Shown in pieces: positions 1,506 to 54,100 of a stretch of DNA of 64,000 nucleotides. This DNA is from Lytechinus pictus (taxonomy: Eukaryota), in assembly GCF_037042905.1 (NCBI RefSeq), contig NC_087250.1, positions 14,386,001 to 14,450,000 of the forward strand, written 5' to 3'. The first letter of the stretch is position 1, and every line of letters starts with the position of its first letter. The position numbers and the translations under genes were made by a program. The notes under the pieces are model-generated. The model was not told the origin of the DNA, searched no databases, and was given only the letters and a program-made list of their open reading frames with translations.

Positions 1506-3635
1506 TCATTGAGGAAAAAGGTATGTCTTAAGGGAAGGTTTGAAGCCAAGAACACTGGAAGCATTTCGTATTGAAAGAGGGATAGTATTCCAAGTCTTGG
1601 CAGCTGCTACAGCAAACCGTTTTTCGGCAGAGGAGAGTTTTGACAAGGGAATGCAAAGTCTGCATGTGTCAGTGATTGAACGAAGATTACGAGAGGGTGT
1701 GTATAATTTGATGGTATTATTAAGATATTCAGGCGCTAGATGATTTAGAGTTTTGTATACATATAAACAGACTTTGAACTGAATACGTTGGAATAGAGGT
1801 AGCCAGTGGAGTTCCTTAAGTAGGGGTGTAGTGTGAGTTCGGGATCCAAAGCCAAAAATTAATCGAGCGGCACGATTCTGAATAACCTCAAGTTTTCGTC
1901 TATCTCTAGCTGACAAAACAGTATATAAACTATAACAGTAATCTAACCGAGAAAGAATAAGTGCTCGCACAGCATGGTGACATGTCTTAAGATCAATGAA
2001 TCTACGAATCCTCCACAAATTGCTGAGATGATAATTACAATTACGGACAACCTGATTTACTTGAGCAGACAGTGTGAACATGTTATCAATGCATACTCCA
2101 AGAACAGTAGTTTTAGTGGAGATGGGGATGCATTGACCATTCACATTAATCTGAATATGTGATATTGATTGCAGATGGCGGGCAGAAGAACGGAGAGCTA
2201 TGAATTCAGTTTTGCTATTATTCAGCTGGAGATAATTAGATGACATCCACCTACTTATTTCTGAAATACAAAGAGAGGTTTTCTCAAGTGTTTTATTTAT
2301 GTTATCAAAAGAGCGCGGGTCAAAGGAACAATACAGTTGTTCATCATCTGCATAACAAATATACTGTAGACCATGTTTATTGATAATGTCAGAGATGGGA
2401 GTGATATACAAACTAAACAGAATCGGCCCGAGAACTGACCCTTGGGGTACCCCAAACTCAGTGACCCACGGGTCAGACAACTCTCCGGCTATGCTTACCC
2501 TAGATGACCAACCAGTCAGGTAAGACTTAAACCATTTAAGAGCTAGACCAGATATGCGAAATCGAGATTTTAAGCGATTCAGTAGTATGGTATGATCCAC
2601 AGTGTCAAAAGCTGCACTTAGGTCTAATGAGACTAAGAAAACACACTTATGCTGATCAAAATATGACAGAACATCATTCTGCAATTTCAAAAGGGCTGTC
2701 TCAGTGCTGAAATAGGATCTATATGCTGACTGCATTGGATCGTATAAACCATTATCATTTACGTGTTCTGTTAGTTGAATTGATACTACCTTTTCTATCA
2801 CTTTAGCAATATGTGAAATATTACTAACAGGCCTATAATTACATAATGTGTCTTTATTCAGATTGTTTTTCTTGATTATTGGTGTAACTATAGCCTGATG
2901 AACACCATCTGGAAATGTACCCGATGATAATGAGCTGTTTACAATAGAGGTCAGAGCAGGAATATTGCTATTGACAAATTTTTTCAAAAGCCAAGTAGGT
3001 TGAGAATCTGTTAAAGAAGTGGCATTAGACATATTGCTCACAATGCGTTTGATATTATCCTCACTGACAACCTCAAAACAATTCAACATACTTTCATGAA
3101 AAGAACTGACTTCCTGACCATCTACACTTCTTGGTTCAGGTGTATTTGTGACATTGTTGCGGATATCACTTATCTTCTTGACAAAGAACAAAGAAAAACG
3201 ATTTGCTAGATCAAGAGGATTATCATACACAGGGAGAAATTTAACATTCTTGTGGAGCAGATTATTAACAACATTAAAAACTGTTTTGACATTGGCTTTA
3301 CAGAGTAACTCCGTATAGTATTTTTGCTTAGCCTTAACTATGAGGTCATTAACATGCTTGTTAGCTAGCTTAAAAGATGTGTGATCAGTGTCTGAAGAAC
3401 TTTTGATCCATTTCCGTTCAATCCGTCTTCTTTCTCGACGCGCAGTAAGGATTTCCTCGTTGAACCAAGGATTGCGAACCCTTGTGGAGCGGAGACATGA
3501 TTTCTGAGGAGCAAACTCATTAACGCAGGCTGCTACAGATGTGTTATACGCAGTAAGAACTGAATCGACATCACCAGCCGAGGACAAGTCATTAAGTTTG
3601 TCAATCAGTGCCTCACTAAATCCTTCGATGTCCAT
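1506..3635 (-). pseudogene. LINE ORF 3' part: reverse transcriptase (L2 clade)
   Basis: PWFN tether, QSAYR..STETAL, YADDEQLY, SRLDYC, LHWLP, WN.IP..IR C-terminus. Confidence 0.9.
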
Positions 3636-4977
3636 CCCTTGAAGTTCCTAAAAGTCCGCCTAACTCCCTCACCACCGGCCGAGGATACCTGAGTACAAAT
3701 CGGATGCAGTGATGATCAGACATGATACTTTGATGAATGACAATGTCTTCAATGATGCAGCCATGACGGGTAGGACAGATGTCTGCAGAGGATTGTCCTT
3801 GATGATTACTCTCATCTCTGGTCATTACAAGGTCCAAAGTGTGACCCATGTTATGGGTAGCTCCGGTGACATGTTGAACCAAGCTAGCAGATTCTATGAT
3901 GGATAGGAACTGAGCTACATCAGACTTTGAAGGTTTATCGACGTGAATGTTAAAGTCCCCAAGAAGAAGAACTCGCCCAGCCAATCGTGATATCTCAGCA
4001 GTAAGATCATCAAATTCTTGAAGAAAGTCTGCTGTACGGAGCTGATTCTGCACAGAAGGTGGTGGTCGGTAGACTACCAAGAAACGCAATTGACCTCCAT
4101 TGCTAACAACGTGTGCTAGCTCAAATGTAGAATAGGTCAGAGAGTCATCCATTTTCAGCTGCAGTTGAAGTGGAGACTTAAAAATAACCGCGATGCCGCC
4201 ATGAGGATCTGTTGGTCTTGGAGCATTCACAACCGCATATCCAGCTGGTAGGCATTCTGCGATGACGACTGGATCTTCTGCTCGAAGCCATGTTTCTGTT
4301 ATAATCATTACATCAATATTGTGTTCAGAAATATAATCATTGAGTAGGAATGTCTTATTACGTACAGAGTGAGCATTCCATAAACATATCTTTAAACAGG
4401 ACTCATGAACCTTTTTATTATTGGTATCAACAACAATCAAGTTACGATGATTAATTCCCTGCACAGAAGATTTGTTGTTCAGACTAAACTGAGAGATACC
4501 AGTAAGTACTGGGATTCTACGTTGCTTTCTACAACCTCCCCGTTTCCCACGATGAGATTTCCTTTTTAGTTTACGATTTATTCCTAACCTCTTAATATTT
4601 ATCAAAACATCAGGATGGAGGAAATGGTGTTGTAGTTTAATGGGTAAAACATTACATCGGAAAAGATCAAGTCTAGTGTAAGATTTACCAACTACATCAT
4701 GAACAATATGTCTGTCATCTGTGAGTGCTTGTGTACAATTCTCAGAGAACAGAGGTCCAGGATTTGGACTGACATCACCAGATATAAGTATTCTCAACCT
4801 AAAAGTGGCATTCGAGTTGGAATAGTACAACATATGTGATCCAATAACTTTCACTCTAGATGGTGATATTACACTACAATGTCTACATGTATACTGTAAT
4901 ACTACATGACAATCAACAACATGTACACTGGCCAGTGTAAGAACCATAACAAAGGTGACAACCCTGATAATCTCCAT
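3616..4977 (-). pseudogene. LINE ORF 5' part: hydrophobic leader, 2A-like motif, APE endonuclease
   Basis: MEIIRVVTFVMVLTLASVHVVDC...RLRILISGDVSPNPGP, a basic KRKSHRGKRGG patch, then the APE domain; frameshifts into the 1506-3635 frame near 3620-3660. Confidence 0.85.
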
Positions 4978-5884
4978 TGTTAAACCAAATCACATTCAAG
5001 GACAAATAAAGAAAGAATGACACGGATGGTTGACATTGAATAGTCAAGTACATTGAAAGAAACACAGTATGGCAGCAAGTACAAACTCACCTAAACATGT
5101 ACAGCATAGGTATATGCAAAAAAAAAAAAAAAAAAAAATCAAAGTCAATCACTGACAATACAATATATCAAAATCACTCAAAACTTGTCTAGCAGCTTCT
5201 ATGACATACAAAGACTCATATATATACAAAAAATAAGGTAGCATAAACAAATAACACAATTAATCTTAATGCAAAGACAGAGCAACAGAGAGTCGCCAGC
5301 TAAGCGCACACCTCTATATTTAGTGCCAAGCCTGGGAACGCATGCTTATTGTCATTCAAATATTTAAAAAGAATAGTACAGACGACATTACAAATAAGGA
5401 CATAATATTTAACCACAATCATTCGTGACAATTTCAACGTATAAGCTTTCCCCGCTATGTTCTCTATGTTTTTCCCCGCCCCCGTAACCCTCTCTGTCTC
5501 TCCACCTCTCTTATGTCTACTTTTCCTCCTTTTTGCATCGGTAAACCTGGCAAAACTTTAGATATAAACAAAACCAGCAGACGAAAAGGAATGTTATGAA
5601 ATGATGAATGAGAATAGTGCAGTTTCATTTTGATCCTGATAAATTGAATGAAAAAAAATCTGTCGTTTGATTTCTTTTTAAAAAGCGTTCACGGTTCACC
5701 TCCAACGAATTCGTAAATAGCAATGTTTGGCCGATGAAGACATAATGATGATGAAATGCCTAACCGTGACATGCACTTCTTATTTAATGTATGTACATGC
5801 GGGGGCTTTTTGACAATTCATTGCATGGGGGTTTAAGACTGGCTATATTTTACCTAGAGCTGTCATTTTTACCTCTCCCATCAC

Positions 5885-6984: not shown

Positions 6985-9900
6985 TTAATTATGGTTATAT
7001 GCAGGTTCTGAGCATGTATCAATAGATTTCAATCGACACATATGAAGTTTATAGATAAAAAATAATGTCTTAAGAAGCAGGCAGTCTTTGATAGAGACTG
7101 GTGGATCAGATACAGGAGGAAGAAGCACAACACAAGTGAACAGAGTAGGGTTTGCTGAGTTATAAGAAGAGACCACATCTGGGTAGTCTTTCAGAGATTC
7201 ATTGAGTAAGGAAATAAACTCAAAGCGAATTGAGTTGGAATGGGGACATGTGGCGATAAAGTGTTCTACTGTTTCATCTGCACTATGACAGTGCTGGCAG
7301 GTTGAGTCAGCGGTCTTAGCAATTTTGTTCAGTCTGGTTTGAAGAAGGTATGTGGAAGAAAGAAGCTGTGCTCTCACTGTCAAGGCCTTTCTAATCAAGG
7401 AGGATGGAGGGTTTCTTGGGTAGAGGTCCTTGACGTCCATAGGCAGATTACCTGCCCAGACTGAAAGACTGGCTTTCAAAAGGATGGTTTGCTCTAGATC
7501 CTCATTGACATTTCTCCTCACTGCTATGTTGATGGTGCGCTTCCAAGTGTTGTATTGAGGTGGATCTGTAATTAGATCTACAAGTGGCGGGAGATGATAT
7601 TTGGACAGAGTATCAGCAAACATCCGGATGGTTGGAGTTGTTTTCTCTGAGGCATGAAGGAAGATTCTAAACTCAAACCGACAGCGATCAATAGAAAGAA
7701 TTAGCCCAAGGAGGAGGAGTCTGTCCAGTTCTATCTGAGCAGACACTGGAATCAAGTCTGTGAGAAGATACACAATTTCATCGGCTGAAGTGATTGGTAC
7801 TCCTAGGGTCCTTTTGAATAGCTGAAGTTGTGTTTTGTTCAGTTTCTTTAGCATTGCCTGGGTGAACTTCAGAGTAGCACAGCCATAGAGCATACGTGGG
7901 ATGCAGTAAGACGTCCATAGGCGGGCAGTCACTAAAGGCACAAGACCCTCCGAGTATGCACCAGTTCCTACCATTGCATAGAAGGTGTTCAGACCTCTTG
8001 TAGCGATCATATCAGATTGGTCTGATTTCGTACTGGTCTTGAGAATTCCTAGATGGGTGTGTGAATCTGTCCGCAAGATTGCATCATTCGCTACTGTCCA
8101 ACTATCCTGGTTACTGGCTTTGCGAGGATTGGTGACCACGATAGCACTCTTAGATGGGTTGATACGATAATGCCAACAAGAAGCATATTGGAACGTCTCT
8201 TCAAGCATTTGTTGTAATTCTGAAGGGGAGTTGCTTAGGAGAGTGATGTCATCAGCCAGTGCAATCACACCTGCGTATTCCGATCGTATGAAGGTGCCGA
8301 GCCCAAGTGACTTTAGATGTTTTATGAGGCCATCAACGAATACGGTATATAAAGTGGGAGAGAGGATACCACCCTGCCTGACCCCTTGAGTGATAGGAAT
8401 AGGATCTGACACATCTCCATCCCAAAGAACATGGCTTTCCATCCTTGAGTGTAGATCTTGTATGAGACGAACAAGGGAGATGCTTATCCCAAATGAACTG
8501 CAACTTATCAATTAAGCCTTCATGCCACACACAATCGAATGCTTTCTCCGCGTCAAGATAAGCGGTGTATGTCGAAAGTCTCGAGGCAGTATTGAGTTCC
8601 AGAATAAGTTCAAGGCACAGAGATGTTAACATGCATGAGAAACCTTTCCGAAACCCAAACTGGAGCTCATCGGGTGTGTTGGCAATCTGGAGTTGACGAT
8701 CCAAGGCAGGTTTTACGCAGAGTTCAAGCAGTTTGCCAAGGGTGGAGGTCAGGGTTATACCACGATAATTTTTTGGATCCTCTGTATCCTTACCTTTCCC
8801 TTTGTGAAAAGGTAGTATCAGACATTGTTTGAGATTTTCAGGCCAGTGTGAGTGACGCAAGAAAGCATTGTAGGCTAGAAGGAGGAGCCTAACAGCAACC
8901 GGTCCAAGATGCTTTATATGTTCACTACTGATGTTATCCATACCTGCTGCTCTTCCAGACTGAAGTTGATGTATTGCAGCTGTGAGATCTTCAAACGATA
9001 ATGTGAGATGTGGCGAGCAGTCAAGGTGAGGTGATGAAGGTAAGTGCATACTGCTGACTCCATGGTATGTCGGTTTTGTAGGCTCCGGATCCATACATGT
9101 AGATGCTATGGCCATTGAACAGCCCTGTTGAATATTATTAACTGGGGAATCAATGTGGAGTTGTTCAGTGACAAGATCTTGCGTGTTTACAGGACCAGAA
9201 GCCAGATCCTTGAAGTAAAGCTGCCATCCAGAAATGAGGCTATCGCCTTCATATCTCTGATTCTTGTATGTGATGGATCGAGTTTCCGCTTGTTGTCGGT
9301 CACCTTTGTTTTTCTTGATGAGTTGATAGAAAAGCTTTTGATTGCTCTTGGAGGCACGCTCAGTTTGCGTGATTTTGTTCTTTTCGGCTATGGCAATAGA
9401 TTGGCGATAGATTTTTCTAAAGTTCTTCTTGGCAAAGATGCGCTCATCATGAAGAGTGCCTTCTTTTGAGTTGCTTTGGGATTTCCAAGCTTTCCAAGCA
9501 GCCAAGGCTTCATTGTGAGCTTCTTGGGTCTTGGTAGACCAACCTGGTTTTCCCTGCTTTTTCTTCATAGCAATTGAATGGGGAAGATCACTGGAATACT
9601 GACACATAGCTTGACTTAGCTGAAGAAGTAGATGGTCGGCTTTATTGGCCTCAAGCGACAAGTTACTGTCAAAGGATTGAAAGAGAGCGGCAGCTGTTTT
9701 CTCCATAGGGATTGTATAGTGCTTCTCAATCTCCTCAGAGGTGGCTTCATTCCACTTCACCTTGAATCGCTGAGCTTGGAGACTAGCAGTAGGGCATGTC
9801 ATGGAATCTCGGCTCTCCCTGTTAGGCTGGATTAAGCAACTCATTGTTGTGGAAACAAGACAATGATCTGATGTGTTTAGGTCATCATCGGAGATGTCGA

Positions 9901-10693
9901 TCCCACGAAATTCACTGGATTCATAAGTATGAACATAGAATCCATCAATATTGGATTTGTGTCTACCATCGTCGGATGCAAATGTGTATTGTGAGCTTGA
10001 GCAGTGTAAGGAGGTCAGACTACACAAAGATTCTTGATGAAGAAAGTTCCGCAGGATGTTACATGTTTTCTTGTTGGGTTTGCCAATAATGTCATTGTTG
10101 AAATCTCCCAGAAGAATTGGGGTGGCATCTTTAGTTGACGCTAATATCTGTGAAATGGCGACCAAGCAAGTGTGTAGTTCATTTTGAGCTACTAAGGATG
10201 AACCACATGGAAAGTAACAATTGATGAGGACAATTGGTTTGCAGGCAGATGAGAGTTTGCACAGAACTGCCAGTATTCTTGGAAGAGTAGTGGGAATCTC
10301 TTTACAGGTGGAGACTACTGACTTTCGAATAAAGATTGCGACTCCTCCTTTACCTCGCGTTCTGTGACTGAAGAAGGCATCAATCCGATCTTCAGATGCT
10401 TTGAAGATATGTAGATGAGAGTGACTAGTGCCATGGAGAGGCAAAGGAGAGCAGAGCCAGTGCTCTTGTATCGCAAGAATGTCAAGGTCCAGAAGTATTT
10501 TCTGGATGTAGGCTTTGCTAGTGTTGAACCCCCTTACGTTCAATGTTGCTATGGAAATATCTATTGTTTTGATGGGTTTGACTGGAGCTTGGTGCGATCT
10601 TTGGGAACGTTGGTGATTTGGGCTATCACTTATCGGGGCAGTTCGGATGGGTGCGTTGTCTGATGGTTCTGGAGAAGTACTTGACTTGTCCAT
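6985..10693 (-). pseudogene. LINE ORF2 (APE endonuclease, RT, C-terminal CCHC knuckle), frameshift near 8500
   Basis: Two overlapping ORFs; RT homology switches frame at GLIDKL / SFGISISLVRLIQDLH. Confidence 0.85.
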
Positions 10694-12135
10694 ACACAGT
10701 CGATGATCTGCTTGTGCAGGGTGTGAAGATTGTGTACTGTTCCTGGGTTTTGAAGGTTCCCTCCAAATGTTAAGAGATGTAGAGCCATTGGAAGAAGGTA
10801 GTAAGCTTTTTCGAGAAGGGCCAGGTGAGAGGTTGTTGACGCTCGACCATGCCGAAAACCCGGCTGTTGGTTACATGGATGTGAGGGAGGGATACTGGGG
10901 TCCAGGTTGTGATGATTCTTTCCCTGTACTCCAGAGTTCTGGGTGACTGGAGTTTGTGGGTAGTTTAGATTTTCGGTTACAACATTTGAGGATGATAGAT
11001 TTTCTTTTCCTAGTATCCTTGGAATAGTTGAAGTAGAGCTTTGTGAGTGATCTCGTCCTCCAGGCAGTTTTCCTGATAATGAAGCAGAATTCTTTCCCTG
11101 TTTACTGTAATCATTAAGATTTGGAGAAGAAGGGTAGTCTTGATTTTCGGGTACCAATCTTGGAGACAGTAAGGTAGCATCACTCGAGATATGTGGTGCA
11201 GGGAATGGTTTGCCTCGGGGATGGGAGTCCTGGTTCTTATGGTCTTCTTGGATTCGTTTTTGTCTAACCGAGCTGGGGCGGTCTTGAAGTACGGGTTGAG
11301 CAGAAGAAGGACATTCTAGATTCCGTGTCATGACTCCCTCATTGTCAGGGTTTTGATGAAACAATTGCCTCTCTGATGTGAACACTGGTTTCTGTATAGT
11401 TGGGTCACATCGCACATCTGGCATCGACATGCGGGGGCTACGTATCTTTGCAGAATTCAATTGAGTACCAACAGGGCCACACTGAGAATGGTCAGAAAGA
11501 GAGGGAAAGGAGGCTGTTCTGCGAAGAGGTATTGTGTCAAATCTGTCTTTAGCAGATGCGGAGCCAAATGATGACCTTCTCACTTTCTTCAACTTTGTAT
11601 TTTGTCTGGTTACTTCCCTGGTCGGGTGTCCTTGTTCGTTGTAGTTCAGGTGTCGTTTATGGTTGGACGTAATAGAAGTAGACCAACGAGGGTGCACTGA
11701 GATACCTGGGACCTTGGAGACCTCTGCTTGAGTTGTTGCATACCGATTGAATGTAGATTTCTCTGTGTTGATAGATCTTGGTAGTGAAAGGTTACTGGAG
11801 TTCGGGGAGCCTCTCGGCCTTAGCTTTAAATTCGGTGCACTGAGCAGTTGGTTACTAGTACGTCTGGCAGACTTGACTTGCCCAGGTGATTTGTAATGTC
11901 TGTTTTTATCTGTAGATTTGACTTTCTCATGAGGTTGCTGGTGACGCCACATATTTGAAGTGTTTTCCTTTGAACCGCATATCTTCACGTCCCCGCTGAA
12001 ATCTGGGGATTCATTAGGATCAGCACTCATGTCATCGAGGATACTGAAACGGTTTTTTGTTTTCACAGGGTTGTCTGTTCTTTTCTGGTTTTTGAGCAGA
12101 AAATTAGCAGTGTCTCCTGGCATATTAGAAGTCAA

Positions 12136-14593
12136 GATCCAAATATAGCTTATAATAATTTTTTGCAGAAGTTCTTAGATATATACAACTCATGCTTTCC
12201 TGTTAGACATATAGTAAAAAGAAAATTCAAAAACAAGCCTTGGTTTAACAAGTCATTACGCAAACTCTGTAATAAAAAATGTCATTTATATAGAAAATAT
12301 TTAAAATGTAATACTTCAGAGAACTATGGAAAATACAAGCATTTTAGAAATAAAGTATAAAATGAAATTAAGAAGGCAAAGAAAGAATATTTTAAATGCA
12401 AATTTGAAAATGCTGCTGGTGACATGAAAAACACATGGAAAATTATCAACACATTGCTGGGTAGGGGTGTAAAAAATAAGGTACTACCAAACTCTGTTGT
12501 TTGCAATGATGTTACAGTTAAAGGGAAAGGTGCAATATGCAATACTTTTAATTCATTTTTTGTAAATATAGGCCAAACAATGTATTCCTCGTTTAAAAAC
12601 AGTGGTGATTTTATGCAATATGTAAATGTAATGAAAAATAATTCAAGTTTGTATTTTACTCCATGTACATCTAAAGAAGTTATTGATATTGTTTCAAAGT
12701 TTAAAAGTGGCAAGAGCCCTGGTTTTGATGGTGTTTGCAGTACATTGGTGAAGACTGTTATTCATATATTATGTTATCCACTATGTGATATAATTAATTT
12801 GTCTTTGAGTACTGGCACGGTTCCAGATAAACTTAAAATTGCGAAAGTCATTCCAATTTATAAAAATGGATCAAAAGATGAATTGTCAAACTATAGGCCT
12901 ATATCTGTCCTCCCTTTTTTTCAAAAATTTTAGAAAAATGTGTGTACACGCGTGTATATAATTTTCTGGAAAAGCGCAATATTATTACTCCCAAACAATT
13001 TGGTTTTCGAGCAGGACACTCCACATCTTCTGCCATTTCTGAATTTATTCATTAAGTATCAAATGCCTTTGATAATAAAGAAATCATGATTGGATTATTT
13101 TTAGACCTTAGTAAGGCATTTGATTCTCTTGATCACATAATTTTGTTGAAAAAATTGAAAAATATGGTTTTCGAGGTGTTGTAATGGATTGGTTTAAGAG
13201 TTATTTAGATAATCGAAAGCAATACGTAGTATTAGATGAACATGAATCTCAGAAAGAGATTGTAAGATGTGGAGTGCCCCAAGGTTCAATTTTAGGGCCA
13301 TTGTTATTTCTTTTATATCTAAATGATATCTGTAATATTTCGAAAACATTAGAATTGATATTATTTGCAGATGACACTAGTGTGTTTATGTCTCACCAAG
13401 ACATTACAGTTCTTCAAAATACATTTCATTCTGAATTCAATAAAATTGTCAAATGGCTAGAAGATAATAAACTTTCACTTAATATAAAGAAAACAAATTT
13501 TATGGTATTTACAAAGAATCAAATTGATACTACTCAAATAAGAATTAAAGTAAAAGACTCATTTATTGATCAGGTCACACAAACAACTTTTCTAGGTGTC
13601 TTAATTGACAATAAACTTACATGGAAGGAACACACTGGTGTCATTTGCAACAAAATATCTAAACGTGTTGGTGTATTTTATAGTTTGAAATTTCTTTCTA
13701 AAGAAACCCTAATGACTCTATATAACACTTTAATTTTACCACATTTATATTATTGTATTATCATATGGGCATGTTCCAGTTTGCAGAATACAAATAGACT
13801 TCTATTGTTGCAGAAGAAAATAATAAGAATTGTTACACATAGCCAATATCTTGCCCATACCATGCCTCTCTTTCATAGCCTGAAAACTCTGAGAATGCCT
13901 GATTTATATATTTATCATAGTGCAATTTTTATGTATTTATGTTACAAAAAAATCTTACCAAGTTCTCTTTTACAATATTTTCAGTTGAATAAAGATATTC
14001 ATGAATATCAAACCAGGTATGCAGAAAATTTTCACATTCCCTTAGTAAGAACATCAGTTTCTCAAAATAATATTTTTTTCAGAGGTCCCAAAATCTGGAA
14101 TAGCATACCATTAGATATAAAATTAAGCCCATCATTAAATAGTTTCAAAAGGAAAATGAAATCTTATTTACTTCAAAACTATTCACAGGTGCAATGATTT
14201 TACTCAATAAGATGTGTGTGTGGTGTATGTGTGGGGGTGTGTGTGTGGGTGTTTGTGTGTGTCTGTCCATTTTTTTTTTTTGTAAATAGGTGTTGATGAT
14301 TGCATATATGCACGTACCTTTAAATTTTATCTTTTGTTTAAATCGGTTATGTATACTTTGGTTTATAATCATGTTTGGAGCTTGGCTTTTATATAAGGCT
14401 CAGCCTTTCTGCCACTCCTTATACTTTCATTTCTATCCGAGTAAAGTAATTTTTCATTCTTGTTTTTCTTTGTATCGTTTTGCTTACTATTAATGTCATA
14501 ATTATTTCTATTATATATTGTCTATGTTATTATGTCTTTATATATGTTTGTTTTTAATGAAAGTATTAAATAAATGAATTGAATTGAATTGAA
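12136..14593 (+). mobile_element. 5'-truncated CR1/L2-group LINE inserted in opposite orientation into ORF1 of the large LINE
   Basis: Starts DPNIAYNNFLQKF; KPWF, KSPGFD, NYRPIS, FLDLSKAFD, GVPQGSILGPLLF, FADDT; stop at 12358-12360 and frameshifts at ~12925 and ~13160; AT-rich 3' UTR ending aataaa + (GAATT)n at 14569-14593. Confidence 0.9.
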
Positions 14594-38400: not shown

Positions 38401-41400
38401 TATTTTTTTAAACTTGTCTTCAGGGTGAACTTCCCCTTTAATTATTAAAGGGTGATATTTCTAAGACAATTTGATTGTGGCTTTAGCAATGGTCTATGGT
38501 CTATGTTTGGTAGTAGGTATTTTCGTGATTTAAATTTGTAAAAATAAGTACCGCCCCCTCCCCCCCCCCCCCCCCGGTTCATAGTGCCGTCCATGCCTCA
38601 TATCAAACTCCTTCCTACATCGCTTCTTTCTGCTTTGTTATTGTAGAATACTTATTAAATGGGACATTGACGAAAATGCGCACCTTCAACTCACATATTC
38701 AAAAACTAGCGACGTTACCCACAGACGACCTTCATAACCAGGTTTGTATACATTTTTTTCCAAAAGAAAGGGGGGGTCGGGGAAGGGGGCGGATGTGCCC
38801 CCCACGAGGCCGATTAAGGGTCCACTATCTTGCTGGAAAGAAAAGTTCACACTGTGTGATCAGTGTGTTCACGTGGTCATCTCCTATGTGAATATATTCA
38901 CACTCTTAAAATACTTAAATTCAACAGTGTAATGATATTTCCACACTGTGGACACTGTGGTCTGGACAGCTATAGTGTATTCACAGTGTGTTCATAATAT
39001 GTTCGACTATGTGAATATGTGATTCACACTCTTAAAATGCTCAAAGTCAACAATGTGAAGGTGATTTATTTTGATACACTGTGGAACTATATATCAGTAG
39101 GGTATATAGGCCGATTGTTACATAGGTCTACGTTTGTCTACCATAGTCGGATCTGCATTCAATAGCAGACAATAAGGTCATTTAACCAAAACACATTCGA
39201 CAAAAGATATTTGACGTTTCGATTATTTTTCACTTTATATCTTGTTTTGTTCAATCTATATACCCACGTTCCCAGATCTGAATTTCTAATTACAAATTTG
39301 TTTAATAACACTAAATTGTATCATTGAAGGAAATGTCACATTGTGAACATCTCTGAACATGCCAGGGGGGGGGACAAATGGGCAGGTGCACGAGGCAAAA
39401 GATAAGGGGCAACAGTCAAGGAGAGTGTCTTGTTTTCATCTTCCGCAAAGAAATGGTTCGTGAATTTCAACAAAGCTTGCTAGAAATTATGCTTAAGACG
39501 CACTTCGGTTTTTGTCGAAAGTTGATGGACGGGGGGTCATCAGGGCTCCGTACCACAAAGGTAATTTGCGATGAATTGCAAATATGAAAGAACCGCACTG
39601 ATTGGTCCCTGGTCAGTATTTTAAACCCTATGCGCGTGTAACATTGATAATGATTGGTCAGTTCATTTAGCGATTGATCGCGTTCAGATTGTCCCTGGAA
39701 TGGACTACAGGTTGCACGGGTCTAATCACAACTGGCAGGCTATAGATATACATTCAAGCCAACCCATTGCTCAATTTTTAAATTTGATATTGCTGATTGA
39801 AAAATATGAATGAATTTGACTGACAATCTAACACTGATTCTAGGGAGGGTACCTACTGAACTTACTTTTTCCAAATTGGAAAGATATATCACCAATATGG
39901 AACTATATTTTTACTGGCGGAAGAATTAGGGTAATTTTACTCTCTCAAGTGATGAATTTGGTCCCGGCAGGTGTAGTCTTCATAAATCCTGATTTATTTT
40001 TAAAATGAGCCGGTCGAGTTACCCTTTTTTGGTCAGATATGGAATGTCTGACATTTATCAGACTGGTAGTAAACATTCAACGCTCGAATTTCCTCCTTAT
40101 TTCTTATGAATTCTTTTTAAGTGCCACTTTAACACACGAGTCTATGGGAAATGAATTAGGCTTGTGAGCCCTAGACGTAAACTTGCAAATATATGGTGTT
40201 TTTTCTAGAGTACAGTGCCGGCTGCACAGAAGCGTTGTTAGCTTAACAGAGCGCGAACTGTTAGCCCTTACAGTCACATCTTGTGGATTGTGAAGTCAAA
40301 ACATATATTTCAATGTTTAACTTAAGTAATGCTTTGTAACATTAGGCATCGCTGCCACATTACCAGTTGTAACAGCTCCTATGTTAACGCAATTGGTAGC
40401 GCTAGCATCGTTGTTGTGCGGTCAATACATGACGGCACTGCTGTTTTGATTCGCCGACTTCGACAAAGGCTGTGCGACATTGAAGAGCTTGGGCGTTGTG
40501 GCGTGCGCCTGTAATCCAAGCTATGCGGGGAAGTTACAAATTGATGCAGAGGTTCGAGGTTCGAGCCCTGGTCACGTCTTTCGGATGGTGACGTTAAAGG
40601 TCGGTCCCAGACGTAAATAATCATATCTGATTGATACACGTCTGACAAAACTCAAATACACACACACACACGCTTTTGAAAAAAAATATGGGTCGTAGAA
40701 AGCGTTTGCATATTGATTGCGGAAATTCCCTATTGAATCATCATTGTAATGATGATTGCAATATCCGTCTTTAGAATTATCGGACCTTTCACACGAAAAA
40801 ATTTGTACCGCAATTTGAGTGAAACTGGAATTCTTCACCTCCGGAGTAGAATTGAATTCGTGATTGTGCTTAGCGTTCGTGATTCTAATTTGGTTTCACG
40901 CGTGCTAAAAATGTGTCCCTATATATCCTTTAAAACAAAAGAAGAGTTCCTGCAGCAGAGTCTCGAGAACACATCTCACCAGAATGCGTAATCTTACATT
41001 ATATCATGCAAAATTACAGGAAATTGGTATTTGGTGTATGGAACCTTACTTTAATAAAACACCATTTTCTCCTTTGTAAACAGACTTGTTCTGTTAAATT
41101 GCAAAAAAAAATTTGTGAATTGACAGAATGATTCTGTTATTGCTTTCTGCAAAATCTTATTTTTTTCTGTAAAATCAGGGGGGGGGGTTCAGTGTAGCCC
41201 TATATTTTTCACTGGAATCGTCATTCAAATTACGATTTTTTTTAACCGTGTGAAAGGGCAGAAAGGTTCTGCAAAGTCTTCTACCACCATCCCCGTGGAA
41301 ATGTCATATAGCCACAATTGAATGAAGAATAATTACAATTAAAATTTTCTTTTTTTTAATGTCTGATTCAGGTAACCTTAAGCTACCGTCTTAACGGCAA

Positions 41401-48264: not shown

Positions 48265-51197
48265 TTACAACCACACAGCAGTGTCTATTTCTGCATAGGC
48301 TTTATCACGTGTATGGGTTTTTTGGTGACATCTAAAAGCATTTCTTTCTCTATATGCTTTACCACACAGATCACACACGTAGGGCTTCTCACCTGTATGG
48401 ACTCGTTTATGTGCCGTGAAATTAGATAATTGTCGATACGCCTTACCACATAGATCACATACATAGGGCTTTTCACCTGTATGGATTCGCTTATGTGCCG
48501 TGAGAGTAGATTTACAACGAAACGCTACACCACATTGGTCACATACATGGGGCTTCTCACCCGTATGGATTCGTTTATGTGCGGCAAGTGGAGATGAAGT
48601 ACGAAAAGCCATACCACAGATATCACACACATAAGGCCTTTCATCTGTATGAGTTCGTTTATGAGATATGAGATAATGTTCACGTTTAAATGCTTTACCA
48701 CATAGGTCACACACATAAGGTTTTTCACCTGTATGCGTTTGTTTATGAGACACCAGATACAGTTCAAGTCTAAATGCTTTACCACATTGGTCACAAACAA
48801 AGGGCTTTAAACCTGTATGGATCGTTTGGTGTCTCCTAAAAGAAGTTTTATTTCCGAATTCCATACCACAATCATCGCACACATAGGGCTTTTCACCTCG
48901 ATGAAGTCGCTTATGTTCTATTAGACTCTGTTCAGTTCCGAATGCTCGACAGCACTGATCGCATTTAAAGGGCCTTTCCGCATTCTGCATCTGTTTGTGT
49001 CTTTTATAGGCAGTCCCATCATTGAATGACTTACCACACTGATCACATACGAAGGGCTTCTCACCTGTATGGGTTCGTTTATGGACTGTAAGATATTGTT
49101 CTTGAGTATACACTTTATCGCACTGATCACAAGCATAGGGCTTCTCACCTGTATGGGTGAGTTGGTGCCTGGTCAGTGCAGTTCTACTACTTAATCCCTT
49201 ACCACACTGATCACACACATAGGGATTTTCACCCGTATGGATTCGTGTGTGGTTTTTGAGATTACAACTCTGGTTAAATGCCTTACCACACTGATCACAT
49301 ACGTATGGTTTCTCTCCTGTGTGGATTCTTTTATGCACTGTGAGATCGTGTTCATAAATGCATGCCTTCCCACATACGTCACACACATAGGGCTTCTCAC
49401 CCGTATGGATTCGTTTATGGATTTTGAGAACGTGTTTGTAACGAAATGCCTTGCCACACTGCTCACATAAAAAGGACTTCTCACCAGTATGGACTCGTTT
49501 TTTTCTCCTAAAATTGGTTCCATCCCTGCATGCCTTGCTACCCTCATCACTCACAAAGGGCTTCTCACCTGCATGGGTATGTTTAAGCATTGTGAGATCA
49601 CTTTCACCATTGAATGCCTTGCCACACTTATCAATCACAAAGGGCTCCTCGACTCCTTTATCTTTTTTCAGATCACTTCCATCATTAAATACTTTAACCC
49701 TCTCATCACTCATTAAGGGCTTCTCACCTGCATGGAATTGTTCATGCGATGTGAGATCACTTCTGTCATTAATTGCCTTAACCCTCTCCTCACTCATGAA
49801 GGGCTTCTCACCTGTATTGATTTGTTTATGTGATGTGGAATCACTTCCATCATTAATTGCCTTATCACCGTCACCTGACACAGGAGGCTTTTTACCTGAA
49901 TGGACTCGTTTATGTTTCCTAAGATCACATCTATCGTTAAATGTCTTACCACACTCGACACACATAAAGGGCCTCTCACCTGTATGGATGTATTTGTGTC
50001 TTCTAAGAGCTGTTGCATCTATAAATGCATTATCACATTGATCACACGCATAGGGCTTTTCACCTGTATGGATTCGTGTGTGTGTTACGAGATTACAACG
50101 CTGATTGAATGCTTTACCACATTGATCACATACATAGGGCTTCACACCTGTATGGATCCGTTTGTGTCTCCTGCAATCACTCCTATCACTGAATGCTTTG
50201 CCACACACATCACATACAAAGGGCTTCTCACCTGCAAGGATTTGTTTATCTTTTTTTAGATCAGTTTCATCATTAAGTGCCTTACCACACTCGTCAGTCA
50301 CAAAGGGCTTTTCACCTGTATTTATTTGTTTATCTTTTTTTAGATCACTTTCATTATTAAATGCCTTATCACGCTCATCACTCACAAAAGGCTTTTCACC
50401 TGTCTGGATTTCTTTATGCGTTGTGAGATCATTATCTTCATTAAATACCTTACCACATTCATCACTCACAGACGGCTTTTCACCCTCATGGACTCGTTTA
50501 TGTTTTCTCAGATCACATCGATCATTAAATGCCTTACCACACTCAACACAGATAAAGGGCCTCTCACCTGTATGGATATACTTGTGTCTTCTAAGAGCTG
50601 TTGCATCTATAAATGCCTTCCCACATAGATCACAGACATAGGGCTTTTCACCTGTATGGATCCGTGTATGTGTTACGAGATTACAACGCTGACTAAATGC
50701 TTTGCCACATTGGTCACATACATGGGGCTTCACACCTGTATGTATGCGTTTATGTTTTGTGAGTTGAGACTTTTGATTAAATGCCTTACCACATTGATCA
50801 CACGCATAGGGCCTCTCACCTGTATGGATTCGTTTATGTGATGTGAGATTAGATTTCTTATTAAATTCCTTACCACATTGATCACATACAAAGTGTTTCT
50901 CGGCTTCCTGGATTACTTTATGCAATGTTCCAGAAGATGAATCTTTACATGATTTGCTTTCGAGCATATTTTCCTTATTTCCTATTTTAGAAATGAATTT
51001 TTCTCCCAGTGCAAAGTCATCCGTGTTGTACATGCGTTTTTGTATTTCTCCTTCGACAACGTGTAGAAAGTCTTCCTGTGCTGCATACGATGGAAAGACG
51101 ACATCGTCGACGCCATGTTTGTACTTGAGATGCCTTGCAAAGATGAGAGGAACGGCATAGTGTGACCCACAGAACTCACATCTGTAGATTCTTGAAT
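48265..51197 (-). CDS. Terminal exon: one isolated C2H2 finger, spacer, then 31 tandem 28-aa units (22 intact C2H2, 9 degenerate)
   Basis: YRCEFCGSHYAVPLIFARHLKYKH, then CxxC..HxxxH units with TGEKPY linkers; acceptor tttttttcttcaatag at 51198. Confidence 0.95.
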
Positions 51198-54100
51198 CTA
51201 TTGAAGAAAAAAAAAAACATACATGTACGTACCATGAAAAAATTATTGTTATACTTTCAGGGCTACTTTTCACAACTTACTGCCTACATCTGCAACATTG
51301 GATAAGCTTTAATTTGCGATTAAAGGGAATTTAGAACAAAATGTATGATTTCATGAATAAAATTAGCATCATTGATTCACATAAAATAAAATGAATGAAT
51401 TTAGTTAAATTTATCCATGCAATCTCATATAATTACAGCATTCTCTGCTGTCGTGCAAATTTTCATCATGATCATGCATTCTGCCGCCCAGAACAAGGGG
51501 GAGCCTCAAGTGGAGGTGCCGTGGCCAAGTGGTGTAAGGCACCTGGCTATACATGAAAAGTCCCGCATTCAATCCCTGCCGCAGCACTAATGCCCATGAG
51601 CAAGGCATTCAATCGACAATGCTCATTTATCCTGCAATCAATTAAATGGAAATGCTATTCTTGGTAACTACGTGTACACTTTAAAAAAAAAAATTAATGG
51701 CCCTCACCACCCAGGCCTGACAAGAATCAAATATCCAAGGACTATTTGGGTTAATCATGGTTCCCCCAAGCTAACACCTATTTTGGTGAGGGAGAGAAAA
51801 ATCTCTCTACCAGGAATAGCAACTGGGACAACAGAGACTGGTTAGTATCTTAGGCAAGCCTGATCCAACTGACAGAGAGATAAAAAGGGCCCCATCTTAC
51901 AAAGAATTGCGATAGGTCCGAACAATAGCAACTATGGTAAGCCAGGAATATGAACATGTGAAATACAGGTTTGTTCAAAATATTTCCTAGAAATAATGTA
52001 TATTCATACATTCATTGTTTTTTTTTTCTGGACAACGCAGTATGCATCTCTTTGTTTTCAAAGGACATTGGGCAAATTTCCTGTAGAAATAACTATGACA
52101 TTGATGGATTTCCATAGAATTACGATTGATTGATCAATCGTAACTCTTTGTAAGACGGGGCCCAGATATCCAACCCCACAGTCACCAATTATTTCCTCTG
52201 TTGGGTGTTGACGAATTTTAAACAAATGGCAGGCCGCTATGCTCAGCTGGATCAAAATGTACTAAAGCATTGTGCTCTAGTCAAATAACATACTTAAATA
52301 TAAAGTGCTGCCAAAGCTCTTGTACATGTGATTTCTAAAGGCCACCGCACACCTTACGACCCGACTGGTCTGCGACTGACTTGCGACTGAGTGAGGGGAG
52401 ATGAATCGCAGGGTGGTCATAAGCCTCGACACCGCACACCTTGCGATCCGACTACCACGCTGTCTGCGACTCACGCAGGTGCTTTGGCTTTTTGCCATAA
52501 CAACTGAGAAAATGCGCTTACTACTGCGTATGCGCGTTGTTTATCATATACGCGTCATGCAACTCTGCTGTCTGATTGGCTGGAAGATGGATTGAGCATG
52601 CGATCCAGTCATAAGGATTTGACATGTCAAATCCTTATGATTTTCCTTGCGACTTGTCTCTAACCGGTCTGCGACTCTCAAGCTGACAAGAGCTGCGACG
52701 TCACATCTCCCCTCACTCGGTCGCAAGCCAGTTGCAGACCAGTCGGGTCGTAAGGTGTACGGTGGCCTTAGCACTTACATTTTTCAAACCCCTATTCCAT
52801 GTTGCATACCAGTACCCAAGAGCCAAAATTGGAGACGAACTAATGTCCCTTCAGGGCCGCCCCAAAACAGACAGGTTAGTGGTTAATCACTTATTTGAAA
52901 GAACAATTTTGATCGGTTCCTAGTCTGTCTACTGAGCAAGACGCGCATGCAACGATGGTCTTGATAGGCTATTTCACTTTGCTAGACTTTGTGTTACAGG
53001 GCCAAGGGAACAGTTTCAAATTTTGGGGCCAATCATCACTTACCCTCTTCAAATGCAGATTGTGTGCATTGTGTTGGGGACCAGCTGCCTCCTGAAGTTA
53101 CTTCTGCCTTCTGATCACATGACTGAGTAATGAGATCACCTGACCTTTGATCACCTGATGTTGGATTTGTTTGTATCTGGGAACATGTAGCTTTATCATC
53201 GCTCTTCCGTCCCGGCTCACTGATCTTTCCATCTGCATTGTGATCAGCATCACCTACTTCTGCCTTCCGATCACATGACTCAGTGATGAGATCACCTGAC
53301 CTTTGGTCACCTGATGATGTTGGATTGGTTTGTAACTTGGTAGCCTCACTGATTACCAAGTCTGCATTGTCATTAGCATCAGCTTGCAGGTTGCCATCAT
53401 CACCATCCGTTTTTGAATCTATATTGGACTATATGAGAAAAAAAAATTACTGAAACATTTCAAATTTAAGTCCACACATTTTGGCATGTCAGACAATGCA
53501 ACAAAAACATTCACCAATTCTCACTGTGCCAGGGTCACCAAACAAACGTCAGATTGTCTACAGAATTTGAAGTAAAAACAAGAATTACCGTGCAAGATGT
53601 TTTTCCTATCAGATTTCAGATGAGTCATCCAACTACAATTCCAATTGAGAAAAATAATAATGTAGGGTATTTATATGGTACAAATATCCATCATGTTTAA
53701 GATGCTCCTATATTAAAGCTAGTCTACCGATTCCGGTGCTCACAGCTTTTCGATGAATTACTTCCCGCCAGTACCCATTTACGTCACCTGGATTGAGTGC
53801 AACACACAGTGGATCAATATCTTGCAGAAGGAAATTACGCCGTGGTTAAGATTAAAATCCTGGGGTGTTTCACAAAGATTTAAGTATGACTTAGAGTCGC
53901 ATGTAAATGCTGACGTGTACACGATATGAAACACGCAATCTTATTGATCAATACGCAGCGGTGCGCGTCCTCTTCACACTATCTGACCAATGCGGCCATC
54001 CCTTTTATACCACATGCAACTAGACATTTAAGTGTGACTATAATTCATACTTAAATCTTTGTGAAACATCCCCCAGGATTGAGTGCAAGACATAGTTGGT

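What the first reader, a model, noticed from the sequence alone, without database searches (positions are those of the whole stretch)
40487..40672. Candidate 7SL-derived (Alu-like) SINE outside mammals
Seen: the first ~45 nt reproduce the SRP RNA Alu 5' domain. There is a hairpin GGGCGU..UGCGCCU, the UGUAA turn, a second short hairpin, and retained loop-loop complementarity (GUGGC/GCUAU). A B box (GGTTCGAGCC), a non-7SL body (GTCTTTCGGATGGTGACGTTAAAGGTCGGTCCC, reminiscent of the Meta-type SINE central domain) and a (CA)n tail follow. There is no S domain, so this is not a 7SL gene. Known: 7SL-derived SINEs are described from primates, rodents and tree shrews, and from hagfish; invertebrate SINEs are nearly all tRNA-derived. 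Inference: an independent origin of an Alu-like SINE that could use SRP9/14 to hijack LINE machinery.
Basis: partly seen in the sequence, partly recalled or inferred. Interest (0 to 1): 0.8.

Follow-up and report, generated by a model that had tools for sequence, protein, structure and literature searches.

The report
Sea urchin SINE with 7SL head
This is one copy of a young mobile element, present well over a thousand times in a sea urchin genome, whose front end was copied from the animal's own 7SL (signal recognition particle) RNA, an origin so far reported only for a few mammals and hagfish.

Summary
Window 40491-40671 is one copy of a ~180-bp interspersed repeat. A 32-nt head pattern with up to 2 mismatches hits 1239 times and a 31-nt body pattern with up to 3 mismatches hits 1558 times; reversed controls give 0. 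Scored copies lie on 19 contigs and many are 98-100% identical.

Its first ~45 nt are the 5' domain of the SRP Alu fold (RF00017, 25.1 bits). They match the genome's own 7SL genes, with one run of 30 identical bases, and share a paired helix-2 change with the 7SL gene on contig C12. The S domain and the 7SL 3' end are absent, and no tRNA is detected.

After the head come a perfect B box, ~38 nt that by eye match the Deu (Nin) SINE domain rather than the Meta domain, a stable 3' hairpin and a (CA)n tail. 5' truncations, enriched target-site duplications and one filled-versus-empty site show retroposition.

The genome carries bindin, so it is an echinoid. Four SINE specialist papers (2018-2024) list 7SL-derived SINEs only from supraprimates, shrew mole and hagfish.

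Not settled: the LINE partner, transcription, SRP9/14 binding, and whether Repbase or Dfam already hold the family.

The parts
40487..40490 (+). Possible 5' target-site duplication, GCTT
   Evidence: The same 4 nt follow the (CA)n tail at 40672-40675. This is a 4-nt match only, so it is weak on its own.
40491..40534 (+). 7SL-derived head: SRP Alu 5' domain with helices 2 (3' strand), 3 and 4. In this copy it is about 4 nt short of the family's AACT start.
   Evidence: RF00017 alignment, 25.1 bits, E=1.5e-4. Run of 30 identical bases shared with the host 7SL genes. 42 of 49 columns identical to the C12 gene.
40499..40509 (+). A-box-like stretch TGGCGTGCGCC inside helix 3
   Evidence: Position corresponds to the 7SL/Alu internal promoter element, which lies at nt 6-15 in human 7SL according to PMC7245038, section 3. 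Promoter function is inferred, not tested.
40510..40514 (+). TGTAA U-turn between helices 3 and 4
   Evidence: Aligned to the invariant UGUAA of RF00017. Identical in all seven host 7SL genes.
40535..40550 (+). Linker of uncertain origin
   Evidence: Collinear similarity to 7SL beyond nt 48 is weak: 46 of 2000 shuffles reach the score against a C10 gene, and 780 of 2000 against the C12 gene.
40551..40568 (+). B box GGTTCGAGCCC (40558-40568) preceded by a 7-nt duplicate GGTTCGA (40551-40557)
   Evidence: Sequence. Fits the tRNA-type B-box consensus GGTTCGANNCC, which is recalled. The duplication is absent from 14 of 77 full-length copies aligned.
40571..40608 (+). Central core resembling the start of the Deu (Nin) SINE domain
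   Evidence: By-eye comparison with the BivaMD-SINE1 consensus rows in the supplement of PMC4824008: about 31 of 38 positions identical. No statistical test was possible.
40608..40644 (+). 3' hairpin (CAGACGT...ACGTCTG with an inner TAATCA/TGATTG stem), the presumed reverse-transcriptase recognition element
   Evidence: Fold of a copy identical to the window copy from 40490 on: -13.0 kcal/mol, z=-2.99, 2 of 200 shuffles fold as well. Its role is inferred.
40645..40671 (+). Tail ACAAAACTCAAAT followed by (CA)7
   Evidence: The CA run varies from 6 to 28 nt among 68 copies.
40672..40677 (+). Possible 3' target-site duplication GCTT, overlapping a TTTT run (40674-40677) that could end a Pol III transcript
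   Evidence: Sequence only. Inferred.

Best explanation
Window 40491-40671 is one copy of a young, LINE-dependent SINE family of a sea urchin with a composite head.

Structure:
- The first ~48 nt (family start AACTGGGCG) were copied from the host's own 7SL RNA. They keep the whole 5' domain of the SRP Alu fold: helices 2, 3 and 4 and the UGUAA turn.
- A tRNA-type B box follows.
- Next comes a short core of the Deu/Nin SINE domain.
- A 3' hairpin and a (CA)n tail close the element.

Likely mode of action:
1. RNA polymerase III starts at the 7SL +1 position, using the 7SL-derived A-box region and the B box, and stops at a T run in the flank.
2. A still unidentified LINE reverse transcriptase recognises the 3' hairpin plus (CA)n and copies the RNA into nicked DNA.
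3. This leaves 5' truncations, short and variable target-site duplications, and tails of variable length.

The head most likely arose when a reverse transcriptase copying an older tRNA-headed Deu-type SINE RNA switched template to 7SL RNA. The same route has been proposed for the 5S-plus-partial-tRNA heads of vertebrate DeuSINEs and for the hagfish 7SL SINE.

Shown here: 7SL origin, copy number, insertion marks. Inferred: Pol III transcription, template switch, any SRP9/14 binding.
For: 7SL origin:
- RF00017 aligns helices 2-4.
- Seven full-length 7SL genes score 272-283 bits in the genome.
- The SINE start equals their start, with one run of 30 identical bases.
- It carries ACT...AGT in helix 2, like the C12 gene, where the other six genes have ACC...GGT. 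This is a change on both sides of a pair.
- Identity to 7SL is 45 of 60 and 47 of 61 columns over the first 60 nt.

Family size:
- 1674 first-look candidates. Of the 46 matches scored, all but one are 94-100% identical over 165-186 nt, and they lie on 19 contigs.
- 1239 head hits (633 forward, 606 reverse) and 1558 body hits, with 0 in reversed controls.
- Of 20 body hits fetched because no exact head hit was listed nearby, 13 have full heads, 3 are cut inside the head and 4 lack it. None has another head.

Retroposition:
- Duplications of 6 bp or more flank 13 of 68 copies, against 1.1% of 2002 mismatched flank pairs. For 5 bp or more the figures are 18 of 68 against 2.9%.
- Bases -1/-2/-3 before TGGGCG are C/A/A in 58, 50 and 40 of 68 copies.
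- There are 30 5'-truncated pieces among 114 distinct copies.
- 10 of 19 tail hits are tail-only pieces with unrelated upstream DNA, two of them with 6-7-bp duplications.
- A host repeat is intact in the window (39900-40030) and in L009, but in L054 it holds a full SINE flanked by CAAA.

Constraint on the head: the only variants at 10% or more among 77 aligned copies lie in the first three bases, in loop L1.2 and in the 7-nt B-box duplication. None lies in helices 3-4.

Tail: the 3' hairpin has z=-2.99.
Against: - No LINE with this tail was found. Three searches built to exclude the SINE itself gave 19, 23 and 95 hits. All hits whose flanks I inspected (18 of the 19, and 2 of the 95) were SINE variants, truncated copies, or one local tandem array. 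The other hits were judged from the printed 29-35-nt strings alone.
- No tRNA-headed sibling sharing the body was found, so the template-switch origin rests on analogy.
- 50 of 68 copies show no duplication of 5 bp or more.
- Minimum-energy folding does not return the canonical Alu fold for the head (z=-0.31). It does not for the true 7SL 5' end either (z=0.18).
- The 7SL 3' strand that closes the Alu domain in Alu, B1 and the hagfish element is missing.
- SRP9 gave no exon-level match. SRP14 gave one of 30.6 bits.
- My sample of copies is biased towards the query type and towards exact body and tail cores.
Confidence: 0.88

Rival explanations
1. The element is a true SINE, but the 7SL head serves only as a Pol III promoter and a stable 5' end. 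It does not bind SRP9/14 or bring the RNA to ribosomes, so the likeness to Alu is one of origin and not of mechanism.
For: - Only the 5' domain is kept. The 7SL 3' strand retained by Alu, B1 and the hagfish element is absent: the best local match of the body to the rest of 7SL is reached by 22-26 of 500 shuffles.
- The element has a structured LINE-type tail. Its reverse transcriptase therefore probably recognises the 3' end directly, unlike mammalian L1.
- Loop L1.2 is 3 nt longer than in the host 7SL genes.
Against: - Helices 2-4 and the UGUAA turn are unchanged in every subfamily seen. The common variants sit in loop L1.2 and outside the head.
- The helix-2 state is a paired one.
- Kojima 2020 argues that parallel retention of the Alu fold in hagfish and mammals points to function (PMC7245038, sections 3 and 10 read).
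- From recall: a 50-nt 5' domain alone binds SRP9/14 in vitro.
Confidence: 0.45
2. The family is real but already catalogued, for example in Repbase, Dfam or an automated repeat library for this or a related urchin. In that case only the 7SL reading of its head would be new, or not even that.
For: - I could not query Repbase, Dfam or SINEBase.
- Sea urchin SINE entries exist: SINE2-1_SP, SINE2-2_SP and SINE2-3_SP are named in PMC4824008 (passages).
- Automated libraries exist for many assemblies (recalled).
Against: - Kojima 2018, 2020 and 2024 and Kosushkin et al. 2024 list 7SL-derived SINEs only from supraprimates, hagfish and shrew mole (passages and sections).
- Full-text searches pairing 7SL and SINE with mollusc, sea urchin, invertebrate or echinoderm, plus sea urchin with Alu-like, found no such report.
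Confidence: 0.2
3. The copies are not a self-propagating SINE. They are independent chimeric retrocopies (7SL RNA joined to another RNA by template switching), or a sequence spread by tandem and segmental duplication.
For: - Tandem dimers and short arrays exist (L005, L010, L018, L024/L025, L039).
- Three body hits lie about 170 bp apart on C2.
- Some loci are paralogous duplicates: L002/L005 and L039/L040.
Against: - The same junctions and the same order of parts recur in over a thousand copies, on 19 contigs and in both orientations.
- Flanks are unrelated in most copies.
- Subfamilies with shared diagnostic changes exist.
- The family has a defined 5' end and tails of variable length.
Confidence: 0.03
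4. The head is a diverged tRNA, as in ordinary invertebrate SINEs, and resembles 7SL by chance.
For: The B box is of tRNA type, and the stretch around it may be a remnant of a tRNA T arm.
Against: - ARAGORN finds no tRNA in the window.
- No tRNA model is among the 4 Rfam matches at E up to 10.
- The head shares a run of 30 identical bases with the host 7SL genes.
Confidence: 0.01

Closest known systems
SINE1-1_EBu (Ebu1-1) of the hagfish Eptatretus burgeri (Kojima 2020, PMC7245038; abstract and sections 3 and 10 read)
   Same: - 7SL-derived head joined to the body of an older SINE.
- Moved by a LINE that needs a specific 3' tail, not by L1.
- Microsatellite-type tail.
- A few thousand copies (2363 there, as quoted in the shrew-mole preprint).
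- Young family.
- Independent origin from the host's own 7SL.
   Different: - The hagfish element keeps both the 5' and the 3' ends of 7SL, with the S domain deleted. This one keeps only the 5' ~48 nt.
- The hagfish body is RTE-derived with an (AAC)n tail. Here the body is a Deu-like core with a hairpin and (CA)n.
- The partner LINE is known there (RTE-2_EBu) and unknown here.
- That host is a vertebrate; this one is an echinoderm.
Alu, B1 and the shrew-mole Urop SINE (PMC7245038 section 3; bioRxiv 10.1101/2024.08.25.609555, passages)
   Same: - Head taken from 7SL RNA.
- Helices 3 and 4 and the U-turn are kept.
- The Rfam model of the Alu-derived mir-1268 also hits the head (25.4 bits). The Alu origin of mir-1268 is recalled.
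   Different: - Those elements consist of 7SL sequence only (5' and 3' parts), end in poly(A), and are moved by L1.
- This element has only the 5' domain, a foreign body, a structured tail and (CA)n.
Tree shrew Tu type SINEs and bushbaby GarnAlu, which are 7SL/tRNA chimeras (as described in PMC7245038 section 3)
   Same: Composite of 7SL-derived and tRNA-SINE-derived parts.
   Different: - Those descend from the single supraprimate 7SL SINE lineage and fuse whole monomers.
- Here a 7SL 5' domain replaces the front of one head, and the origin is separate.
DeuSINEs with composite 5S rRNA plus partial tRNA heads (SINE3, AmnSINE1), and the sea urchin DeuSINE SINE2-3_SP (PMC4824008, passages)
   Same: - A Pol III RNA 5' part joined to a partial tRNA promoter and followed by Deu-domain sequence.
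- That paper proposes template switching from a SINE to 5S rRNA as the origin of such heads.
   Different: - The donor here is 7SL and not 5S rRNA.
- Only ~38 nt of the Deu domain are recognisable, and only by eye.
- I could not see the SINE2-3_SP sequence.

Membership tests
SINE (SINEBase definition, PMC3531059, passages read) | Short (<1 kb) interspersed, non-tandem repeat with at least 100 copies | tested here: met
   The element is about 180 bp. There are 1239 head hits and 1558 body hits, with 0 in controls. Scored copies lie on 19 contigs. A minority of copies lie in tandem.
SINE (SINEBase definition) | At least 60% identity to tRNA, 5S rRNA or 7SL RNA over at least 60 nt | tested here: met
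   45 of 60 and 47 of 61 columns are identical to two host 7SL genes. Nearly all of the signal lies in the first 48 nt.
SINE | Internal Pol III promoter (boxes A and B) and Pol III transcription | tested here: inconclusive
   The B box at 40558-40568 is perfect by sequence. The A-box-like stretch at 40499-40509 is inherited from 7SL.
SINE | Marks of LINE-type integration: target-site duplications, 5' truncation, variable tail | tested here: met
   Duplications of 6 bp or more flank 13 of 68 copies against 1.1% in the control. Truncated copies are seen. One filled site is matched by two empty sites. The CA run is 6-28 nt. 50 of 68 copies have no duplication of 5 bp or more.
SINE | 3' end shared with a partner LINE | tested here: inconclusive
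   Three exclusion-pattern searches found no LINE (flanks inspected in 32, 72). The three LINEs in the window have other 3' ends. A partner more than about 7% diverged in the tail would have been missed.
SINE1 (7SL-derived SINEs as known: Alu, B1, Urop, Ebu1-1) | 5' region derived from the 5' end of 7SL RNA | tested here: met
SINE1 | 3' end of 7SL also kept, with the central S domain deleted, so that the Alu domain is closed by helix 5 | tested here: not met
   Nothing after nt ~48 shows significant similarity to the rest of 7SL: 22-26 of 500 shuffles reach the best local score. RF00017 aligns helices 2-4 only.
SINE1 | Binding of SRP9/14 to the Alu-type fold | not testable with these tools
   Only plausibility checks were possible: an SRP14 exon match of 30.6 bits and no SRP9 match (uninformative for a small gene split into exons).
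DeuSINE superfamily | Central Deu (Nin) domain | tested here: inconclusive
   About 31 of 38 positions of 40571-40608 equal the first part of the Deu segment of BivaMD-SINE1_AsNo and _TeGr in the supplement of PMC4824008, compared by eye. The match is short and untested statistically. Which stretch is the Deu segment was deduced by subtracting the part shared with BivaMeta-SINE1.
   By eye, the stretch shared by BivaMeta-SINE1 and BivaMD-SINE1 (the Meta-domain) has no counterpart in the element. The head is not a tRNA.
tRNA-derived SINE (SINE2) | tRNA-derived head | tested here: not met
   ARAGORN finds 0 tRNAs. There is no tRNA match among the 4 Rfam matches at E up to 10. Only the B-box stretch may be a tRNA remnant.
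7SL RNA gene or 7SL retropseudogene | S domain and full length of about 300 nt | tested here: not met
   The Rfam model's central 250 positions are deleted in the alignment. The true genes score 272-283 bits; the SINE heads score 32-35 bits.

The most novel reading that the evidence does not exclude
This is a fourth independent birth of a 7SL-headed SINE and the first outside vertebrates. It is still active in a sea urchin. The bare 50-nt 5' domain of the Alu fold is enough to recruit SRP9/14 and place the SINE RNA at ribosomes that are making its LINE partner's proteins. On this reading the Alu strategy evolved convergently in an echinoderm, and in a minimal form.
Probability: 0.3. Interest if true: 0.85.

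Novelty: new variant of a known kind. Interest (0 to 1): 0.68.

Why it matters
- **Rarity.** SINE specialists call 7SL-derived SINEs extremely rare. Three independent lineages are on record (supraprimates, shrew mole, hagfish), all of them vertebrates.
- **What this adds.** An echinoderm family extends the origin to invertebrates. It also shows a third way to build such a head: 7SL 5' domain, then a tRNA-type B box, then a Deu core.
- **A natural experiment.** Because it keeps only helices 2-4, it tests which part of the Alu fold matters for SINE success.
- **Practical use.** The many 99-100% identical copies suggest recent or ongoing activity in a laboratory model animal. That would give insertion markers and a tractable system for SINE/LINE biology.

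Tried and rejected
- **LINE partner.** I ran tail patterns with 'not' letters upstream to exclude the SINE itself.
  - The searches gave 19, 23 and 95 hits. None looked like a LINE family.
  - Flanks were read for 18 of the 19 hits (my regex missed L074) and for 2 of the 95. None of the 23 could be fetched.
  - The 1.7-kb unit that carries a tail fragment on C18 is a local array of 23 units with no long ORF.
  - The window's own LINEs (1506-4989 on the minus strand, 6985-10870 on the minus strand, 13133-14197 on the plus strand) end differently.
- **tRNA-headed parent.** None was found.
  - blastn and nhmmer of the body and tail against 270-361 kb of held DNA found only copies of this family.
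  - The exclusion pattern mostly returned the duplication subfamily (309 hits). The six best hits were mutated copies.
- **7SL homology beyond nt 48.** Weak. 46 of 2000 shuffles reach the score for one gene and 780 of 2000 for another.
- **Thermodynamic folding of the head.** Uninformative, because the true 7SL 5' end does not fold canonically either. The whole element has z=-1.35.
- **Reads.** The look-up of sequencing runs listed holders. These were 'organism A' in several studies, 'organism B' in two runs at a share of 0.85, and six RNA runs with under 5 words. Nothing was laid, so none of this is used as evidence of expression or of range.
- **Taxon.** The Protein Atlas look-up of a window LINE ORF gave no usable taxon. 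Bindin did.
- **Earlier scan notes.** None exist for this place or this sequence.
- **Supplements.**
  - File 1 of PMC4824008 could not be searched.
  - The figures of that paper, which hold the Deu and Meta alignments, are not held.
  - The bivalve SINE supplement of PMC11481361 gave only one tail motif hit.
Full report
**What is at the coordinates.**
- Helix 3 and its loop lie at 40491-40510.
- TGTAA lies at 40510-40514.
- A second short hairpin (TCC...GGA) runs to 40531.
- GGTTCGAGCCC lies at 40558-40568, preceded by a 7-nt duplicate.
- A body follows, then (CA)7 at 40658-40671.

The gathering-threshold Rfam scan of the whole window found nothing, and ARAGORN found no tRNA. The E-value scan of 40300-40900 aligned 40488-40542 to helices 2, 3 and 4 of Metazoa_SRP at 25.1 bits, E=1.5e-4, with the central 250 model positions deleted. 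It also hit mir-1268 at 25.4 bits. The other two of the four matches had E above 2, and no tRNA model appeared.

**It is a large, dispersed, young family.**
- A DNA search of the window's own 811.7-Mb assembly gave 1674 first-look candidates and 46 scored matches. All but one short fragment are 94-100% identical over 165-186 nt, and they lie on 19 contigs.
- A 32-nt head pattern with up to 2 mismatches occurs 633 times forward and 606 times reverse. A 31-nt body pattern with up to 3 mismatches occurs 777 and 781 times. The reversed controls give 0.
- I fetched 20 body hits for which no exact head hit was listed nearby. Of these, 13 carry the full head (often with CpG-to-TpG changes), 3 are cut inside the head and 4 lack it. 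None has a different head.
- Among 114 distinct copies in the DNA I held, 77 are full length. Their identity to the query runs from 85 to 100%, and 7 are at 100%.
- This sample is biased. The first 30 loci were the best matches to the window copy, and later loci were chosen by exact body or tail cores.

**The head comes from this animal's own 7SL RNA.**
- The genome has seven full-length 7SL genes scoring 272-283 bits.
- The other 18 scored matches score 32-35 bits. The three I fetched are copies of this SINE.
- The family's 5' end is AACTGGGCG. The bases before TGGGCG are C, A and A in 58, 50 and 40 of 68 copies. The genes start ACCGGGCG, or ACTGGGCG in the C12 gene.
- From there the SINE and the genes share a run of 30 identical bases. 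The alignment continues through helix 4 to ...GGAAGT: 42 of 49 columns against the C12 gene and 40 of 48 against a C10 gene.
- Six genes pair ACC with GGT in helix 2. The C12 gene and the SINE both have ACT with AGT, a change on both sides of the pair. The 'GTG' loop subfamily also shares AGCTG with the C12 gene.
- I infer from this that the donor was a C12-type 7SL gene.
- After about nt 48 the similarity ends. The best local match of the body to the rest of 7SL is reached by 22-26 of 500 shuffles. A forced collinear alignment is reached by 46 of 2000 shuffles for one gene and 780 of 2000 for another.
- There is thus no S domain and no 7SL 3' end.

**The rest of the element.**
- *B box.* The B box fits the tRNA-type consensus exactly (the consensus is recalled). 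Its first 7 nt are duplicated in most copies, but the duplication is absent from 14 of the 77 aligned.
  - The supplement of the MetaSINE paper (PMC4824008) prints consensus rows of BivaMeta-SINE1 and BivaMD-SINE1.
  - By eye, about 31 of 38 positions of the window stretch equal a stretch of BivaMD-SINE1 (_AsNo and _TeGr rows).
  - That stretch lies after the part BivaMD-SINE1 shares with BivaMeta-SINE1. It therefore falls in the segment the paper calls the partial Deu (Nin) domain (passages).
  - I saw no counterpart of the Meta-domain itself.
  - I could not run this comparison through a tool, so it remains a visual match of a short stretch.
- *Tail.* It begins with a hairpin at 40608-40644 (-13.0 kcal/mol, z=-2.99, 2 of 200 shuffles as good). 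ACAAAACTCAAAT follows, then a CA run of 6-28 nt.

**Marks of retroposition.**
- With flanks paired correctly, a direct repeat of 6 bp or more abuts the element in 13 of 68 copies, and of 5 bp or more in 18 of 68. With flanks paired at random the figures are 1.1% and 2.9% of 2002 pairs.
- Examples are 10-14 bp long (L038, L071, L106, L098, L028, L042).
- Fifty of the 68 copies show no repeat of 5 bp or more.
- 5'-truncated copies are common. Of 19 tail hits selected to differ upstream, 10 are tail-only pieces in unrelated DNA, and two of them have 6-7-bp duplications.
- A host repeat that is intact in the window (39900-40030) and in L009 is interrupted in L054 by a full-length SINE flanked by CAAA.
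- The window copy itself starts at GGGCG. It is flanked by GCTT on both sides (40487-40490 and 40672-40675).

**Constraint on the head.**
- Among the 77 aligned copies, the only variants at 10% or more are the first three bases, a 2-nt indel and a C/T site in loop L1.2, and the 7-nt duplication. None lies in helices 3-4 or the U-turn.
- Of 300 substitutions against the consensus, 171 are transitions and 31 are CpG transitions.
- Energy-based folding does not recover the canonical fold of the head, but it fails equally for the real 7SL 5' end. I rely on the covariance-model alignment instead.

**What I could not find.**
- *LINE partner.* Three exclusion-pattern searches gave 19, 23 and 95 hits.
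  - All hits whose flanks I read were variants or truncated copies of the SINE, or units of one 1.7-kb tandem array on C18.
  - The three LINEs in the window have other 3' ends.
- *tRNA-headed sibling.* None with the same body turned up.

**The host.**
Earlier notes of this scan call the genome a sea urchin. I checked this in one way: the Pfam bindin family matches at 236.7 bits (E=1.5e-67) on C13. That bindin is an echinoderm sperm protein is recalled knowledge. SRP14 gives one exon-level match of 30.6 bits. SRP9 gives none, which says little for a small gene split into exons.

**Comparison with what is known.**
- Kojima 2020 (PMC7245038; abstract and sections 3 and 10 read) describes the hagfish SINE1-1_EBu as the first clear 7SL SINE outside Euarchontoglires. 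It is a chimera of 7SL with an older tRNA SINE and is moved by an RTE.
- Kojima 2024 (PMC10886601, passages) states that SINE1 is known only from primates, rodents and hagfishes.
- Kosushkin et al. 2024 (bioRxiv 10.1101/2024.08.25.609555, passages) add the shrew mole and call independent 7SL lineages extremely rare.
- All of those elements keep both ends of 7SL. The present family keeps only the 5' domain and joins it to a B box and a Deu-like core.
- This most resembles, in design, the 5S-plus-partial-tRNA heads of vertebrate DeuSINEs, which Nishihara et al. attribute to template switching (PMC4824008, passage).
- Full-text searches found no report of such an element. The term sets were 7SL with SINE and mollusc; 7SL with SINE and sea urchin; 7SL with SINEs and invertebrate from 2023; sea urchin with Alu-like and repeat; and 7SL with SINE and echinoderm.
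- A search on '7SL RNA-derived' or 'SINE1' from 2019 found the papers above.
- I could not query Repbase, Dfam or SINEBase.

**Verdict.**
This is a 7SL-headed SINE of independent origin in an echinoderm. The body is Deu-like and not Meta-like, the Alu fold is only half kept, and any use of SRP9/14 is untested.

Noticed in passing
L031, L035, L036 (G000:C10:7910447-7922324), locus positions about 1290-1500: Three tandemly duplicated 7SL genes on C10 each have an older copy of this SINE ending about 33 bp upstream of the gene start. It sits just before a motif conserved upstream of all seven 7SL genes (about GATAT.TCCTTAATTTCGC at -33 to -13). The insertion predates the duplication of the gene cluster.
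   Followed up: partly
G000:C18:3148581-3186000 (L077, L078): A tandem array of 23 units of about 1.7 kb, 90-100% alike and with no long ORF. Each unit ends in a fragment of the SINE tail. One truncated insertion was probably amplified together with the unit.
   Followed up: partly
L008, L013 and L045, directly upstream of their SINE copies: An element of about 110 nt ending in ...ATTGAAGAGCGCCATCATATTCAAC(AAC)n lies directly in front of the SINE, in two independent contexts. L013 and L045 are paralogues of each other. The window copy is preceded by ATTGAAGAGC at 40480-40488. This may be a second retroelement with an (AAC)n tail, or a template-switch chimera.
   Followed up: partly
window 39703-40167: A repeat of at least 460 bp, also present in L009, L054 and L064. 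Its copies in L054 and L064 both carry SINE sequence at the same position: full length in L054 and tail only in L064.
   Followed up: partly
window 1506-4989 (-), 6985-10870 (-), 13133-14197 (+): Three LINE remnants with endonuclease and/or reverse-transcriptase ORFs (RVT_1 up to 112 bits, Exo_endo_phos 55 bits). The plus-strand one is followed by a TG-rich run at 14213-14260.
   Followed up: partly
window 48265-51276 (-): An open frame of 1003 aa made almost wholly of C2H2 zinc fingers (zf-H2C2_2 613 bits, 18 stretches).
   Followed up: no
L005, L010, L018, L024/L025, L039; G000:C2:17634222-17634592: Head-to-tail dimers and short arrays of the SINE, with the (CA)n of one copy abutting the (T/C)AAC start of the next. 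Paralogous loci carry one copy against two (L002 vs L005, L040 vs L039), so some dimers arose by local duplication.
   Followed up: partly
L110 (G000:C11:32249000-32249760), L111 (G000:C19:5659840-5660600): Older, more diverged copies with an extra AT between the Deu-like core and the tail hairpin (…CCCATCAGACG…). This points to an older subfamily.
   Followed up: no
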